The notes under the pieces are model-generated. The model was not told where the DNA came from. It searched no databases and saw only the letters and a program-made list of their open reading frames with translations. A stretch of DNA of 39,633 nt from Reclinomonas americana ATCC 50394 (lineage: Eukaryota). Shown here piece by piece: positions 5,494 through 38,161 of the stretch. Each line of letters starts with the position of its first letter. Positions within the stretch are counted from its first letter, which is position 1. Location of the stretch: positions 12,334 through 51,966 of the forward strand of contig PS015713.1 in the NCBI GenBank assembly GCA_048213135.1, written 5' to 3'. The position numbers and the translations under genes were made by a program.

Positions 5494-8400
5494 ATGAGGT
5501 GTGTGTGTGTGTGCTGTCATGCGCATCCCTTCTCTTCCCTTCTTTCTCTCTCATGTATATTGTGCAGTCGCCAAGAGAGGAAGAAAGCATGGGAGATGGC
5601 AGAGGAGGGCAATGTGAAGGCACTGCGCGCGTTGGTGGCACGTGAGGGCGCACAAACTCTGCTCAAGAAAGAGGAGATGGCGGGCGATCGATCAGCATTT
5701 TACTATGCCACTGCCGGTGGCCATCTCTCAGTGTTGGAGTATCTGTGGGAGGAGAGTGGCGTGGGGCCACAACTTGCACGACTGGTCGATGTCAATGGCT
5801 GGACACCACTGATCGCCGCTGTCTTGCGAGGGCATCTGCAAGTGGTGGAGTGGTTACTGACCGATGAGCGACGATGTCCGCCGGAGACCGTACAGGCGGT
5901 GAGCAAGCCGAACCAGTGGACGGCACTGCATTTTGCTGCCTGTAATGGACACGAGGCCATTGCGCGCCTCCTTGCCACTCGCTTCCCCGACCTCATTCCC
6001 ATGGTCGACGACATGGGCAAGACGGCGGGTGAGTGGGCTTGCGACAATGGCAAGCAGCACGTGGCCGAGTTGCTCGGCAGCCCGTCCACGCCGCCATCGC
6101 AGCCACGCCAGGAATCTCCTCCCCCACCACCACTACCAGCAGCGCCAGCAGGTGTGTTCTCATTGTCGTCTTGAGCTGGTGGCTGATTCGTGTCCTTTTT
6201 CTCACTCACACTCTTTCTTTGTGTATTTCGTTTGCCTCTCGCCTGTGCAGAGCACGCAGTGCCGCCACGCCAGGTGAGAGACTGCGCTCTACTATCTTGC
6301 TTGCCTTTGTCTGTTTCTCATCTCGCACTGCTGTTGCGCAGGCGATTGAAGACTCGGCCTTTGTGGCACGCCAGTTTGCCGAAAAGGACGCACTCATCGC
6401 CCAACTCCAGCGCGATCTTGCCGCAGCACAGCAGGAGCGACAACAAGAGCGGCGTGAACACAAAGACATTGTGGCTCAAATGCAACACGCCAGCGCCGAG
6501 GATTATCGAATGATCGCCCAGTTGCAAGCCAACCTTGCCGCTGAACGGCAAAAAGTGCGTGCGATGGAGGGCCAGCTGCGCTCACTCTTCCACATGGACT
6601 TTCTCAGGTTTCTTTGGGACTTACTCTCTGCCTGTGTTCTTGCTAGAAGTCGCCTCACTCCTTTTGTTGAATGCACAGCGACCGCCGTCCCATCTTGATG
6701 CTTACAGAGGTCGTGCACGAAATCGTTCCACTGGCACTCGGCTCACTCCTGCAACAACTCGTCGCTGATTTCTTCCCTGCCGAATTCGACATTGAGCAAC
6801 TGTGCCTTCCGACTCCACCGCCAAGGTTCTGTCAAAGAGACTGCCTTGACTGTGCTGCGTCTCACGCACTCATTGTGCCTCACAGATACTGCCGAATGAC
6901 TCTGGACAAGCGTGGCAATATTCGCCTGCGCTCTGTCGAGTTATTCCCGTCCAACTACGAGTCCATTCGCGAATTCAAGCAGAGTGGAGTGACAACGGAC
7001 ATGGATGTGTCGCTGCTGTGCACGCTGCTGTTGTACTCAACTTTCGTTCCCGTTGCTGCTTGCCGTGATGAAGATCTGCTGGAGAGCGTCGTCCGTCTCG
7101 ATCCTGACACGAACGAAGACCGTGTTACTGTGCGACTTCTCGCTGACCACGCCAAGGTTTGCTCTCCGTTTGTGTCATCGTCGTCGGCAAGTGTTCTCAT
7201 TGTTCTCACTGGTCAATCCTCGTTGCAGATCCGAGCCGTGGAGAACTTGCGGGATGTTCGCCATCGTGTGTCTCACCTGGCACGTCTATCTGCACTCGAC
7301 GACGCAGAGTACGTGAGCGTCATGCGGCTGGTACGCGACTCACTCCGCACTCTGTTCCCCGACGGAGAGCACGAAAGTATCCGTCTCTTGTTCCAAGCAT
7401 ACGAGAGTTATGACTGCGCTTGCCACATACTGTCTTCATTCTCATCTCACTCTCCCGGAGCACAGATGTGTGTCGCATCAATGTGACTGCCGAGCTGGTG
7501 ACGGAGAGAGCAGCCAGATTTGCCATTCGCGCACCCGTTGTGCCGTTCTCTGACTTGACGCCTTCGAGACAGCTTGCCGTTGGTGTGATCATCTGCATCT
7601 CTGCATGAATGAGAAGAGAGGCTCATCGTGTCTGTGTTCCATTGCAGGTCAAAATGCTGTCTTCCATGCCACTCTCCGTCTCGGCGGTGTGTCGCAGACC
7701 GTGGCATACAAGCGATACCTGGTCAGGAGGCAAGCTCGAGATGTGCAATCGGCGGACTGGAAACGCATTCACGAGAGCTTTGAGAACGAACACTCCCTGC
7801 TGATGCAACTCGAGTGCGTTCATTGTTGCACTTGAATGCTTACCGTCTTTGCTCATGTGCCTTGCACGCACAGTCACCCACACATTGTGAAACTGATGGC
7901 CGTGTGCAACGACGACCCGAGTGGCCTCGGTCTTGTTCTTGAATATGTCGGCGACGAGGACGAAGAGGAGGGCTTTGCCGAGACGATGCACGACTTGGTG
8001 AAGGATGAACGGACGACGACTCCACACCTGCTCAGTCTGCTCGTGCAAGTGGCGTCGGCGGTGGTGCACATGCACTCGCGACGAGTGGTGCATCGTGATC
8101 TCAAGCCACACAGTTGCGTCTTGGGGAGACAACAAGAGAAGAGGATTATGAGCTGGTCATACAGCAAAGTGAGTTAACGAGAGGAAGAGGAAGAGGGAGA
8201 GCAAAGCAGGCGAGTGAGGTCAGTGTGCTCGTGCAAGTGGCATCGGCGCTGGTGCTCATCGGGATCTCAAAGCCGCAGAGTTTCGTATTCGAGAGGGTAA
8301 GTGAGAGAGGGCAATGAGATGCTGATGCAAAGTGAGTTAACGAGAGAAGCGCGTTGGTGCACATGCACTCGCGGTGAGTGGTGCGTCGTGATCTCAAGCA

Positions 8401-9459
8401 ATATTTTGGAGTGGGTTATGGGAGAGAGCGTGACTGCAAGAGAAGAGGATCATGTGATGCTGATGCACGAGAGTGGATGAGAGCGACAACAGTTGAAACA
8501 ACTTCGAAGTCATCGCTATACTTCCATTCTGATTGCTGACCCTGTTTCCTCTCTCATATTCACAGACATTCTCATCAGCGAGGACCGACAGGTGGCGAAG
8601 GTCTGCGACTTTGGGGAGGCCAAGATTCACGGCACCCTCGGCAAGATGCAGTCCATCCACGGCACAGCGGCGTATGCTGCACCCGAGCCCATGTTGGAGC
8701 TGGAGGTGTGGATGATATTCTATTCTCCTGTTGTGCGCAATGAGAGTGGTGATTCTTCCTTCACCACCCGCAGTACGATGAAAGGGCGGATGTGTATGGA
8801 TTGGGCTCGCTGCTTTGGTTCATCGCCACTCGTCAAGAACCGTTTACCGGGGTGGCACTTGCGGTGATCATGCGCCACATGCACGACGGCATTCCGCCGG
8901 CCGACCTTGACGATGCTGGTGTGCGGGCAAGGGTGCCGGAGGAGATTCGCAATCTGATTCGGCAGTGCTGGGTTGCGTGTTGGTGAAGAAGCTGGTGTGG
9001 CTGGGAGAGGTGGCTGCTCATTGCGCTCGCGTGTTATGCAGAGGCCGCAAGCAACACGCGTGTCGGCATCGTATGTGCTGGACGAATTGAGGCGCTTGAG
9101 CGAGGCGGCAGCACTGGCTGTGGGAGGATTTGGACCGACGGGCCGTTCACTGTGAGCGGGAGAGTGATGGGGCTGCTGCAAGCGAAGTCGGCGGTGCGCA
9201 TGGCTGCATCTTACACACTCGCTCATCTTCCTCGCTCACACGCTGTTGTTGATCATACAGGTGCGTGGATCAGCGAGACGCTCGTCGCCCCGCCGCCGAG
9301 CAGCTGGCAAGCGAGGCGCGCCACTTGGCGGCACTGTCGGCAGCGTCGAGCATGCGTGGTGTGCGCGTCACATGCCTCGTGTGGCCACCTAATGTTTCGC
9401 TTGTGTGCGCAAGAGGTGGTTCGGGCAGTGCCTGGTGTGTCGTGTGCTGGTCGACCTAG
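5494..9459 (+). CDS. Ankyrin - coiled coil - putative HEPN (DZIP3-like) - protein kinase, paralogue A
   Basis: Phase-consistent exons 5494-5498 (ATGAG), 5568-6151 (ankyrin), 6251-6273, 6342-6607 (coiled coil), 6679-6825, 6886-7156, 7229-7406, 7466-7582, 7648-7813, 7874-8112, 8566-8705, 8774-8971, then 9042 to either the stop at 9155 or a splice to 9261-9459. Motifs TPLIAA/TALHFAA, DMDVSLL, RHRVSH, VAYK, HRDLKPHN, DFG, GTAAYAAPE, DVYGLG. Confidence 0.88.
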
Positions 9460-9819
9460 TCGATTGGTGAACTGCTGGATGTCACTCGTACCTGGCGCCG
9501 CAGTGACTGGAAGGAGAAGGTGGAGGAGGAGTGTGAATGGAAGATGCTTGTGTGACGATCGCGACGACTTGTGACTTGAATGATAACCGTGAACTGCATT
9601 CGGAAGCAGACAGATAGTGGCAGCACCGACGAATACGGACGGAAAGAGAAGGAGACTGCGGTGGAGTGGAAGAGAATGAGAGTGAGCAGAAAGCAAAGAA
9701 GAGAGCATATTAGTACCGCATTAAGTTGACAGTGACTTTGCATCACAGAATGCATCACGCTCTTCCTCTCACTCTCTCTCAATGTGTGCATGTGTTTATG
9801 TGTGTAAGAGAGTGATGCA

Positions 9820-38079: not shown

Positions 38080-38125
<46 letters not shown>

Positions 38126-38161
38126 TCACGTAGTTGAGAGACGATTTAACTCGCGCTTCAT
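33589..38161 (-). CDS. Triple ankyrin module - coiled coil - IRAK/Pelle/RLK-like kinase, paralogue D
   Basis: Exons 38161-38151 (probable start), 38043-37469, 37400-36780, 36698-36144 (three homologous ankyrin exons), 36060-36047 (GC donor), 35982-35640, 35574-35381, 35323-35208, 34759-34642, 34229-34122, 34033-33762, 33697-33589. The kinase is nearly identical to that of paralogue C. Confidence 0.88.

What the first reader, a model, noticed from the sequence alone, without database searches (positions are those of the whole stretch)
5494..38161. One sensor chassis, two effectors: a modular ankyrin-receptor family clustered with a Crinkler-type gene
Seen: genes A, B, C and D share a micro start exon, the RKKAWE ankyrin exon, a Q-ending micro-exon and a homologous coiled-coil exon (KD..IAQLQ.DLAAAQQER...LAAER), then diverge at the next intron into HEPN-like + kinase (A, B) or an IRAK/RLK-like kinase (C, D). 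Inference: exon shuffling built a family of cytosolic sensor-oligomeriser-effector proteins analogous to NLR or receptor-kinase immune clusters, possibly working as sensor/executor pairs through the shared coiled coil.
Basis: partly seen in the sequence, partly recalled or inferred. Interest (0 to 1): 0.85.

Follow-up and report, generated by a model that had tools for sequence, protein, structure and literature searches.

The report
Ankyrin-cassette kinase gene family cluster
Four neighbouring genes of an unidentified intron-rich eukaryote share one ankyrin-repeat front end that has been joined, exon by exon, to two different kinase back ends, a clear case of modular gene building whose proposed immune role is still only a guess.

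Summary
The core observation holds. Hand-built gene models give four open multi-exon genes: A 5494-9459 (+), B 10116-14144 (+), C 28556-24943 (-), D 38161-33589 (-). All four share a 5-nt coding start exon, a ~190-aa ankyrin exon beginning (R/H)K(K/I)AWE, a 14-nt micro-exon ending in Q, and a proline-free helical exon.

After that exon they differ. A and B carry a family-less helical domain with a conserved Rx4H motif, then a Ser/Thr kinase. C and D carry an RLK/Pelle(IRAK)-like kinase.

New points:
- D has three in-frame ankyrin exons, two of them phase 1-1 symmetric.
- B's two in-frame TGA codons lie in a likely 60-nt intron.
- The shared front end is 56-63% identical between the two classes, the kinases only 27.7%. 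That argues for exon-level recombination.
- All parts are under purifying selection (dN/dS 0.02-0.51).

"HEPN-like" rests on the motif and a language-model lead to DZIP3-type HEPN clusters. Pfam, HMMER, PDB and AlphaFold2 gave nothing. "Crinkler-type" is not supported: gene E is a 768-aa P-loop NTPase gene with no header-domain match. No RNA data, genome or outside relatives were available. The immune and sensor/executor-pair reading is untested inference.

The parts
5494..9459 (+). Gene A, 13-14 exons, about 880-900 aa, open frame. Exons: start 5494-5498; ankyrin 5568-6151; micro-exon 6260-6273 (or 6251-6273); helical 6342-6607; Rx4H domain 6679-6825, 6886-7156 and 7229-7406; kinase 7466-7582, 7648-7813, 7874-8112, 8566-8705, 8774-8971 and 9042-9151; tail 9261-9459.
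   Evidence: Hand model with GT-AG introns of 59-109 nt plus one of 453 nt. Pfam Ank. Pfam Pkinase on consecutive exons at profile positions 57-127 and 129-167, and PK_Tyr_Ser-Thr at 181-241.
10116..14144 (+). Gene B, paralogue of A with the same exon plan. Exons: start 10116-10120 (GC donor); ankyrin 10189-10736; micro-exon 10808-10821; helical 10882-11210; Rx4H domain 11282-11428, 11489-11759 and 11827-12004; kinase 12064-13837; tail from 13946.
   Evidence: Exon ends mapped from A by alignment, all with AG/GT. Two TGA codons lie inside the putative 60-nt intron 11429-11488. dN/dS against A is 0.23 for the Rx4H domain and 0.27 for the kinase.
24943..28556 (-). Gene C, 10 exons, 691 aa, open frame. 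Exons: start 28556-28552; ankyrin 28466-27877; micro-exon 27787-27774; helical 27675-27126; RLK/Pelle-like kinase 27052-26859, 26797-26682, 26103-25986, 25582-25475, 25387-25116 and 25051-24943.
   Evidence: Pfam Pkinase 1.3e-16. Best PDB hits are BRI1, RIPK3, SOBIR1, IRAK4 and BAK1. All 6 N-lobe hits are plant receptor kinases.
33589..38161 (-). Gene D, 12 exons, 1009 aa, open frame. Exons: start 38161-38157 (least certain); ankyrin 38043-37469, 37400-36780 and 36698-36144; micro-exon 36060-36047 (GC donor); helical 35982-35640; kinase 35574-35381, 35323-35208, 34759-34642, 34229-34122, 34033-33762 and 33697-33589.
   Evidence: Ank2 (621 nt) and Ank3 (555 nt) are phase 1-1 exons. dN/dS among the three modules is 0.22-0.26. 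The kinase has dN/dS 0.11 against C.
30226..32976 (+). A 7-exon model gives an open 768-aa frame, with Walker A (GAGKT) at 30430 and Walker B (hhhhDE) at 30841. The C-terminal part is of unknown fold. E is transcribed divergently from C and convergently with D.
   Evidence: No Pfam, PADLOC or NCBIfam family. Nearest Atlas clusters are fungal hypothetical proteins at 0.96, then AAA_22/KAP/NACHT-type NTPases at 0.83-0.87.
7256..7276 (+). Approximate place of the Rx4H motif (R-H-R-V-S-H) in exon 7229-7406 of gene A. The surrounding residues are identical in gene B's exon 11827-12004.
   Evidence: Translations. Coordinates estimated from the sequence ruler. A motif this short is expected by chance about once in two such domains (own estimate).

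Best explanation
This is a small, lineage-restricted family of cytosolic multidomain kinases built by exon-level duplication and recombination. The common 5' cassette has four parts: a 5-nt start exon, one exon encoding an N-terminal cap plus about four ankyrin repeats, a 14-nt micro-exon, and one exon encoding an 88-183-aa Q/E/A/L/R-rich helix without proline. This cassette is spliced to one of two 3' cassettes. The first is a helical domain with a conserved Rx4H motif followed by a Ser/Thr kinase (A, B). The second is an RLK/Pelle(IRAK)-type kinase (C, D).

Shown: the shared exon plan, the open frames, purifying selection on every part, and the age mismatch between the front end and the kinases.

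Inferred mechanism: the ankyrin module binds a protein or small ligand through the variable positions of its repeats. The long helix brings two or more chains together. Proximity activates the kinases by trans-autophosphorylation. In A and B it would also pair two HEPN-type domains into an RNase site, as dimerisation does in RNase L and IRE1.

My odds: architecture and single-gene status 0.9; exon-level recombination 0.75; the A/B middle domain is a HEPN-superfamily member 0.55; a role in immunity or conflict 0.3.
For: Shared exon plan and homology.

Open frames across 10-14 exons with GT/GC-AG introns, mostly 57-113 nt. The gap between the helical exon and the first effector exon is 65-73 nt, the usual intron size, so these are single genes.

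Selection: dN/dS is 0.21-0.51 for the 15 ankyrin pairs, 0.23 for the Rx4H domain, 0.27 for the A/B kinase and 0.11 for the C/D kinase. Of the 9 A/B exons from exon 5 onward, 8 have no indel and one has a 3-nt in-frame indel. None of the 6 C/D kinase exons has an indel. By contrast, 6 of 8 A/B introns and 5 of 6 C/D introns in the same regions have indels.

Recombination: the cassette is 56-63% identical between classes and the kinases 27.7% over 213 aa. dS for A-B is 0.62 in the ankyrin exon and 0.30-0.37 in the effector part. dS for C-D is 0.89 in the ankyrin exon and 0.20-0.78 in the kinase. D has symmetric 1-1 ankyrin exons. A B-C patch is 86% identical over 110 nt.

Kinases: Pfam hits on consecutive exons. 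HRDLKP, DFG and the beta-3 lysine are present in the translations. C/D are closest to BRI1, RIPK3, SOBIR1, IRAK4, BAK1 and CERK1.

HEPN lead: R-H-R-V-S-H is identical in A and B. The Atlas embedding search scored 0.96/0.96/0.95 to mollusc clusters carrying PF18738 HEPN_DZIP3 or PF15112 in 11-38% of members. Of 30 hits, 13 fell in the HEPN_DZIP3 set, 7 in the DUF4559 set and 3 in the set with both.

No signal peptide or membrane-like segment lies outside domain cores. The 26 most variable of 166 ungapped ankyrin columns include pairs just before the TPL motif and just after the AA motif of the repeats. From recall, those are the usual ligand-contact positions.
Against: No transcript evidence exists, so all splice joins are inferred.

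The HEPN assignment failed every conventional test. Pfam found no hit at E<=10. phmmer against 1.84 billion representatives gave only one spurious repetitive hit. phmmer against the PDB found none at E<=10. PADLOC and NCBIfam found none. The AlphaFold2 single-sequence model had mean pLDDT 40. The Atlas 'recognition' value was 1937, below the 2300 mark, and only 3 of the ten best hits with a family shared a family or clan with the best. The tool itself reads that as 'probably wrong'.

The crude heptad test did not separate the helical exons from shuffles: 12, 65, 81 and 167 of 200 shuffles reached the observed score.

Whole-module dN/dS is below 1 everywhere, so there is no signature of an arms race. 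Unrelated genes lie between the A/B and C/D pairs: a weak TCP-1/cpn60-like match below Pfam's cut-off and a WD40 gene. No relatives outside the window were found, so conservation and copy number in the genome are unknown.
Confidence: 0.55

Rival explanations
1. This is an ordinary lineage-specific expansion of ankyrin-bearing kinases used for general signalling, localisation or cytoskeletal control, as in the Giardia Nek/Protein 21.1 family. It has no immune role. The A/B middle domain is a non-catalytic helical linker, and the Rx4H motif is there by chance.
For: Purifying selection acts on all parts. The surrounding genes are of housekeeping type: mTERF, WD40 and a weak TCP-1/cpn60-like match. 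No HEPN profile or structural match was found. The best PDB hits of an A/B kinase exon are Nek7, AMPK and PKR. Giardia Neks combine kinase, ankyrin repeats, coiled coils and sometimes RING domains in a large, dynamic family (PMC3218828, passages read).
Against: One front end is recombined with two unrelated kinase types, and the ankyrin exon is triplicated in D. Both are more typical of receptor-like families. The embedding search points to DZIP3-type HEPN clusters. The C/D kinase is closest to immune-signalling kinases such as RLKs, IRAK4 and RIPK3, though these families also have non-immune members.
Confidence: 0.33
2. One reading: A/B-type and C/D-type proteins form hetero-oligomeric sensor/executor pairs through the shared helical exon, by analogy with paired NLRs.
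For: The helical exons are homologous, with 50-62% identity to A and 19 invariant columns. A patch of B is closer to C than to A. The genes lie within 33 kb of each other.
Against: There is no direct evidence. The two pairs are not head-to-head like paired NLRs; they are separated by about 10 kb of unrelated genes. The helical exons differ in length (88-183 aa) and lack demonstrable heptads.
Confidence: 0.08
3. Some of the copies are decaying duplicates or assembly and annotation illusions. B would be a pseudogene, D's extra ankyrin exons dead copies, and the ankyrin-helix part a gene separate from the kinase part.
For: B has two in-frame TGA codons in the unspliced exon. The window has four N gaps. 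D's start exon is uncertain. Partial exon copies sit in intron 9 of A and B.
Against: Both TGA codons fall in a 60-nt segment with GT...CAG ends, the usual intron size. The same segment is present and in frame in A. dN/dS for B against A is 0.23-0.27, with no frame-breaking indels in 9 exons. D's three ankyrin exons join in frame with dN/dS 0.22-0.26. The effector exons start 65-73 nt after the helical exon.
Confidence: 0.04

Closest known systems
RNase L (and IRE1): ankyrin repeats, (pseudo)kinase and a KEN-type HEPN RNase
   Same: If the A/B middle domain is a HEPN domain, the same three domain types occur in one cytosolic protein. The likely logic is also the same: ligand or partner binding, then dimerisation, then a composite RNase site plus kinase regulation. 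The HEPN survey lists KEN as fused to S/T/Y kinases along with ankyrin repeats (PMC3710099, passages read).
   Different: The order is Ank-helix-HEPN-kinase, not Ank-kinase-KEN. The embedding lead points to the DZIP3 type, not KEN. A long helical exon is present. The kinase keeps HRD, DFG and the beta-3 lysine. No sequence similarity to RNase L was found. An IRE1 kinase match to one A exon is weak, E 1e-4, below Nek7.
DZIP3/hRUL138-like HEPN domains of animal NLR-like expansions
   Same: Both are helical domains with an Rx4-6H motif, and fusion to ankyrin repeats is recorded. The family forms lineage-specific expansions in Nematostella, oyster and Capsaspora (PMC3710099). It is the commonest non-LRR partner of NACHT in many cnidarians (PMC8260672, passage read).
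   Different: Pfam PF18738 does not match. [quoted passage not shown] The present organism is unidentified and its proteins were not found in the protein collections searched.
RLK/Pelle/IRAK (and RIPK) kinases; cytoplasmic receptor-like kinases; RIPK4/ANKK1 (the last from recall)
   Same: The C/D kinase exons hit BRI1 best (E 3e-12), then RIPK3, SOBIR1, IRAK4, BAK1, Pto, SymRK and CERK1. All 6 PDB hits of the N-lobe exon are plant receptor kinases.
   Different: No death domain, transmembrane segment or ectodomain is present. The N-terminal partner is an ankyrin module plus a helix.
Exon-shuffled candidate receptors of brown algae (LRR-ROCO, NB-ARC-TPR)
   Same: Repeat modules are encoded by single symmetric exons that are duplicated and exchanged among clustered paralogues (PMC3341825 and PMC11378527, search listing and start of abstracts only).
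   Different: Here the module is a whole four-repeat ankyrin domain per exon. The effectors are kinases, not ROC-COR or NB-ARC. Only six modules are seen.
Giardia Nek / Protein 21.1 ankyrin-kinase family
   Same: A large, dynamic protist family combining kinase, ankyrin repeats, coiled coils and sometimes RING domains (PMC3218828).
   Different: In Giardia the kinase is N-terminal and most copies are catalytically dead. Here the ankyrin module is N-terminal and the catalytic motifs are intact.
Crinkler (CRN/CR) effectors with NTPase+HTH+REase C-termini (for gene E)
   Same: Gene E has a P-loop NTPase followed by further domains. NTPase+HTH+REase is the commonest Phytophthora CRN C-terminus (PMC5289972, passages read). 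The nearest embedding clusters are fungal proteins of no family.
   Different: No Crinkler header domain was found (Pfam), and only about 68 residues precede the P-loop. No REase could be shown: AlphaFold2 gave pLDDT 50 and Foldseek nothing at E<=0.001. The gene has six introns of resident size.

Membership tests
Ankyrin repeat proteins | Match to the Pfam Ank/Ank_2 profiles above the curated cut-off | tested here: met
   All six modules match. Ank_2 scores 64.5-136.7 bits against a cut-off of 27.3.
Eukaryotic protein kinase superfamily | Pkinase profile match, plus catalytic HRD, DFG and the beta-3 lysine | tested here: met
   Pfam hits on exons of A, B, C and D fall at consecutive profile positions. 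The motifs are visible in the translations. The A/B glycine loop is degenerate.
RLK/Pelle/IRAK family (C, D) | Kinase domain groups with RLK/Pelle/IRAK kinases | tested here: inconclusive
   Best PDB hits are BRI1, RIPK3, SOBIR1, IRAK4 and BAK1. All 6 N-lobe hits are plant RLKs. No tree with reference kinases could be built.
IRAK proper / receptor kinases | N-terminal death domain (IRAK), or transmembrane segment plus ectodomain (RLK) | tested here: not met
   The N-terminus is an ankyrin module plus a helix. No death-domain Pfam hit was found. No hydrophobic segment lies outside domain cores.
HEPN superfamily (A, B middle domain) | Conserved Rx4-6H motif | tested here: met
   R-H-R-V-S-H is identical in A and B. 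The motif is short enough to occur by chance.
HEPN superfamily (A, B middle domain) | Profile or sequence match to a HEPN family (e.g. PF18738 HEPN_DZIP3) | tested here: not met
   No Pfam hit at E<=10. No PADLOC or NCBIfam hit. No PDB hit. One spurious hit among 1.84 billion representatives. The only positive is the embedding lead.
HEPN superfamily (A, B middle domain) | All-alpha four-helix core fold | tested here: inconclusive
   The AlphaFold2 single-sequence model has mean pLDDT 40 and is unusable.
Crinkler (CRN/CR) effectors (gene E) | N-terminal Ubl header domain with LxLFLAK-type motif (Pfam Crinkler model) | tested here: not met
   No Pfam family at E<=10 for the first exon. Only about 68 residues precede Walker A.
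Crinkler (CRN/CR) effectors (gene E) | C-terminal NTPase + HTH + REase module | tested here: inconclusive
   Walker A and B are present. The REase fold was not shown: pLDDT 50 and no Foldseek match.
NLR/STAND receptors | Central NACHT or NB-ARC NTPase in the same protein | tested here: not met
   No such domain occurs in A-D. Gene E's P-loop is a separate gene with only weak (0.83) embedding similarity to NACHT-bearing clusters.
Coiled-coil proteins | Heptad periodicity of hydrophobic residues | tested here: inconclusive
   Composition fits: 66-72% Q/E/A/L/R/K and no proline. A crude heptad score was reached by 12, 65, 81 and 167 of 200 shuffles.
Exon-shuffled gene families | Domain borders at introns, symmetric exon phases, and modules younger than their partners | tested here: met
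   D's Ank2 and Ank3 are phase 1-1 exons. The cassette/effector border lies at an intron in all four genes. The cassette is 56-63% identical between classes and the kinases 27.7%.

The most novel reading that the evidence does not exclude
A and B are functional analogues of RNase L that arose independently in a protist. An ankyrin sensor and a dimerising helix would control a DZIP3-type HEPN RNase fused to an active kinase. The same swappable sensor cassette also drives IRAK/RLK-type kinases (C, D). On this reading the locus is part of an innate-immune receptor family, outside animals and plants, that diversifies by exchanging whole-domain exons.
Probability: 0.15. Interest if true: 0.85.

Novelty: new variant of a known kind. 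Interest (0 to 1): 0.55.

Why it matters
If the models are right, the locus is an unusually clean record of how multidomain signalling proteins are assembled. One whole-domain ankyrin exon is duplicated in frame, and the same front end is attached to two unrelated catalytic back ends.

If the A/B middle domain proves to be a HEPN RNase, an Ank-HEPN-kinase protein would be a second, independent version of the RNase L design. It would also be the first kinase fusion of a DZIP3-type HEPN domain relative to the 2013 survey table. My two literature searches for such fusions found none.

Together with IRAK/RLK-like paralogues on the same cassette, this would give a testable entry into innate immunity of a poorly sampled eukaryotic lineage. 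If instead the family is ordinary signalling machinery, it remains a useful annotation case: 5-nt and 14-nt exons, GC donors and in-frame introns are features that gene finders usually miss.

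Tried and rejected
- **Whole genome:** none is held for this window.
- **RNA evidence:** no RNA holder was listed for 5400-14300.
- **Earlier scan notes:** none for this genome.
- **The search for homologous proteins:** the Rx4H exon with 'longer' found nothing. Gene E's P-loop exon with 'longer' found nothing. The ankyrin profile with 'longer' found only generic ankyrin proteins of at most 36% identity.
- **The search of protein representatives with the Rx4H exon:** 1 hit, a repetitive artefact-like protein matched in 11 stretches. 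I rejected it.
- **Metagenome scans:** none for the Rx4H exon. One generic 31% ankyrin locus, L001, for the ankyrin profile; not followed.
- **Family and structure look-ups:** Pfam at E<=10, PADLOC, NCBIfam and PDB phmmer gave nothing for the Rx4H domain or for gene E.
- **AlphaFold2 without an alignment:** mean pLDDT 40 for the Rx4H domain, with in-frame intron residues included. Mean pLDDT 50 for gene E's C-terminal exon. Foldseek of the latter found no match at E<=0.001. I ran no fold search on the pLDDT-40 model because it would be meaningless.
- **Complex prediction, helical exon of A against that of C:** 'no answer', score 0.30 against a mark of 0.34. This is no evidence either way.
- **RING-like Cys/His pattern in another frame at the 3' ends of A and B:** no Pfam support; dropped.
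- **HEPN paper supplement:** held only as 4,325 characters with no DZIP3 alignment.
- **Gene E splice junctions from typed peptide anchors:** The junctions were then found from coordinates alone.
- **Not possible here:** a kinase phylogeny and an HHpred-type profile comparison with PF18738, because no reference sequences could be obtained.

Full report
**Material.** The window is eukaryotic DNA of about 55% G+C with four N gaps and many CT and CA microsatellites. No whole genome is held for it. No RNA run was listed. The scan has no earlier notes on this genome. Everything below therefore rests on the window itself and on searches with single exons.

**Gene models.** I built models by hand from open frames and GT/GC-AG sites, and carried them from A to B and from C to D by alignment.
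- Gene A (5494-9459, +) has 13-14 exons and an open frame of about 880-900 aa.
- Gene B (10116-14144, +) has the same plan.
- Gene C (28556-24943, -) has 10 exons and 691 aa.
- Gene D (38161-33589, -) has 12 exons and 1009 aa.
- Of the 44 introns in the four basic models, most are 57-113 nt. Each gene has one or two long ones of 403-578 nt.
- Three donors are GC: B intron 1, D intron 1 and D's micro-exon.
- Consecutive kinase exons of A hit consecutive stretches of the Pfam kinase profiles: Pkinase 57-127 and 129-167, then PK_Tyr_Ser-Thr 181-241. This supports the joins.

**The shared front end.** A self-comparison finds six copies of the ankyrin exon: one each in A, B and C, and three in D.
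- All 15 pairs are 66-73% identical over 444-617 nt, E 3e-34 to 8e-86.
- The proteins of the other five modules are 56-63% identical to A. Invariant blocks are RK.AWE, LWEES.VG and VVEWLL.DERRC. All score as ankyrin repeats in Pfam.
- For A, B and C the DNA homology starts within three bases of the ATG of a 5-nt coding start exon: ATGAG followed by GT or GC. D's ATGAA|GC start looks homologous to B's but is the least certain join.
- After the ankyrin exon, which ends in phase 1, every gene has a 14-nt exon ending in CAG. It restores phase 0. In B only this version leaves an intron of normal size, because the longer alternative leaves 26 nt.
- My crude heptad test did not distinguish these exons from shuffles (12, 65, 81 and 167 of 200), so 'coiled coil' remains a compositional guess.

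**The two back ends.** The genes diverge 65-73 nt after the helical exon.

*C and D* continue straight into a kinase with an intact glycine loop, beta-3 lysine, HRDLKPSN and DFG.
- Its catalytic-loop region is closest in the PDB to BRI1 (E 3e-12), followed by RIPK3, SOBIR1, IRAK4, BAK1, Pto, SymRK and CERK1.
- All six PDB hits of its N-lobe exon are plant receptor kinases.
- 'IRAK/RLK-like' is thus a fair label, although no tree could be made. There is no death domain, membrane segment or ectodomain.

*A and B* first encode about 218 residues of no known family and then a kinase.
- The kinase has a degenerate glycine loop but intact lysine, HRDLKP(H/Q)N and DFG.
- Its exons hit Nek7, AMPK and PKR in one search, and PknB, TAK1, RIPK1 and WNK1 in the other. 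Its class stays open.
- The A and C kinases are only 27.7% identical over 213 residues.

**Is the A/B middle domain HEPN?**
- In favour: the motif R-H-R-V-S-H sits in a stretch that is identical in A and B. A language-model search gave its best three scores (0.96, 0.96, 0.95) to mollusc clusters in which 11-38% of members carry PF18738 HEPN_DZIP3 or PF15112.
- Against: every conventional test failed. These were Pfam at E<=10, PADLOC and NCBIfam, phmmer against the PDB and phmmer against 1.84 billion representatives, where the single hit is a repetitive protein matched in 11 stretches that I reject. A metagenome scan also found nothing.
- AlphaFold2 without an alignment gave mean pLDDT 40.
- The Atlas tool's own calibration marks this result as weak: recognition 1937, and 3 of the ten best hits sharing a family. 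An Rx4H motif is expected by chance about once in two such domains (own estimate).
- I put the HEPN reading at about 0.55.
- The published HEPN survey lists DZIP3-type HEPN domains fused to ankyrin, NACHT, CARD, DEATH, RING and others in animal lineage-specific expansions, but not to kinases. It lists KEN-type HEPN fused to kinases and ankyrin repeats, as in RNase L (PMC3710099, passages read).

**Is B alive?** Read straight through, B's first middle-domain exon has two TGA codons. Both lie in a 60-nt segment (11429-11488) with a GT donor, a CAG acceptor and the usual intron length. The homologous segment of A (6826-6885) has the same ends and happens to be open. With it spliced, B is open throughout. 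A and B differ by dN 0.084 and dS 0.365 in this domain (ratio 0.23), so both have been kept by selection.

**Selection and history.**
- dN/dS is 0.21-0.51 for all 15 ankyrin pairs, including 0.22-0.26 among D's three modules.
- It is 0.18-0.43 for the five helical-exon pairs that could be computed; dS was saturated for A-D.
- It is 0.27 for the A/B kinase and 0.11 for the C/D kinase, falling to 0.02 in the last four exons.
- Of the 9 A/B exons from the middle domain onward, 8 have no indel and one has an in-frame 3-nt indel. None of the 6 C/D kinase exons has one. In contrast, 6 of 8 A/B introns and 5 of 6 C/D introns in the same regions do.
- The parts have different ages. For A-B, dS is 0.62 in the ankyrin exon and 0.30-0.37 downstream. 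For C-D it is 0.89 in the ankyrin exon, 0.78 in the first two kinase exons and 0.20 in the last four.
- Some introns are 97-100% identical, which suggests gene conversion.
- Between classes the cassette is twice as similar as the kinases. A 110-nt patch of B's helical exon is 86% identical to C's, against 78% for A-B over 92 nt of the same stretch.
- D's second and third ankyrin exons are 621 and 555 nt long. Both start and end in phase 1, the symmetric form that allows in-frame exon duplication. The first ankyrin exon runs from phase 2 to phase 1.
- I read all this as exon-level duplication and recombination.
- The break point is not exactly the same. The helical exon ends in phase 2 with an extra LFHMDFL tail in A/B, and in phase 1 in C/D.

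**The neighbour, gene E.** A seven-exon model from ATG 30226 to the stop at 32974-32976 is open for 768 residues, with introns of 68-88 nt. It has Walker A at 30430 and Walker B at 30841.
- No Pfam, PADLOC or NCBIfam family matches any exon tested, including the Crinkler header model.
- Only about 68 residues precede the P-loop.
- The Atlas places the P-loop exon next to fungal proteins of no family (0.96). More distantly (0.83-0.87) it sits near AAA_22, KAP and NACHT-type NTPases.
- The C-terminal exon, which looks vaguely nuclease-like to the eye, folded at pLDDT 50 and found nothing by Foldseek.
- NTPase+HTH+REase is indeed the commonest CRN C-terminus (PMC5289972, passages read). Here, however, only the NTPase is shown. 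'Crinkler-type' is therefore not supported.

**Context.** The A/B pair and the C-E-D group are separated by about 10 kb. That stretch holds a weak TCP-1/cpn60-like match (below Pfam's cut-off) and a WD40 gene. An mTERF gene lies upstream of A. tblastn with the four models finds no further family fragments in the window. No specific relatives were found outside it. The ankyrin profile retrieves only generic ankyrin proteins of at most 36% identity, plus one 31% metagenome locus.

**How it most likely works.**
- Shown: the architecture.
- Inferred: the ankyrin module is the recognition part. Its most variable columns (26 of 166 ungapped) include pairs just before the TPL motif and just after the AA motif of successive repeats. 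From recall, these are the usual contact positions. The long helix would bring chains together, proximity would switch on the kinases, and in A/B it would pair the putative RNase domains as in RNase L and IRE1.
- No signal peptide or membrane segment is evident, so the proteins are probably cytosolic.
- An immune or conflict role is possible but has no direct support. Whole-module selection is purifying, and lineage-specific ankyrin-kinase families with ordinary cellular roles exist, such as the Giardia Neks (PMC3218828).
- The suggested A/B-C/D pairing through the helix could not be tested. The one complex prediction gave no verdict.

**Verdict.** The 'HEPN' label is a reasonable but unproven lead. 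The 'Crinkler' label and the immune sensor/executor model are not supported by anything I could run. I rate it a new variant of known kinds: ankyrin-kinase proteins, exon-shuffled receptor-like families and possibly HEPN-kinase enzymes. Interest is moderate and would rise sharply if RNase activity or infection responsiveness were shown.

Noticed in passing
window 8113-8565 (A intron 9) and 12717-13239 (B intron 9; tandem unit 12769-13102): The one long intron inside the A/B kinase holds degenerate tandem copies of the 3' end of the preceding exon, the stretch that encodes the catalytic-loop HRDLKP region. B has 1.9 copies of a 176-nt unit, 86% matching. These could be dead duplicates or alternative exon ends.
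   Followed up: partly
window 9261-9574 and 13946-14237: The 3' tails of A and B encode a second peptide resembling the end of a kinase domain. In another frame they carry a Cys/His-rich, RING-like pattern. Pfam finds no zinc finger. The last two exons of my A and B models are the least certain.
   Followed up: partly
window 6608-6678 vs 11211-11281; 8972-9041 vs 13658-13727: Two A/B introns are 100% and 97% identical while flanking exons are 78-93% identical. This looks like recent gene-conversion tracts.
   Followed up: no
window 10927-11036 vs 27503-27612: A 110-nt patch of B's helical exon is 86% identical to C's. That is closer than B is to its own partner A over 92 nt of the same stretch (78%), and suggests exchange between the two gene classes.
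   Followed up: partly
window 28886-29125 vs 33084-33317: A roughly 240-nt repeat (69% identity) lies in the C-E intergenic region and again between the 3' ends of E and D. It contains CT microsatellite sequence. Its meaning is unknown.
   Followed up: no
window 24417-24819: Short direct repeats (82-86% identity, about 80-115 nt) lie just downstream of gene C's stop codon.
   Followed up: no
window 2232-5085 (+); 15703-18071 (+); 19767-21574 (-): The neighbouring genes are of housekeeping type. There is an mTERF-domain gene (Pfam 5e-22), a weak TCP-1/cpn60-like match below the Pfam cut-off and interrupted by N gaps, and a WD40-repeat gene.
   Followed up: partly
window 1454-1743, 15030-15404, 16675-16980, 23742-23761: Four runs of N mark assembly gaps. 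None falls inside genes A-E.
   Followed up: yes
whole window: None of the window's unusual domains, and not even a self-hit, was found in the protein collections searched. The organism's proteome seems absent from them.
   Followed up: partly
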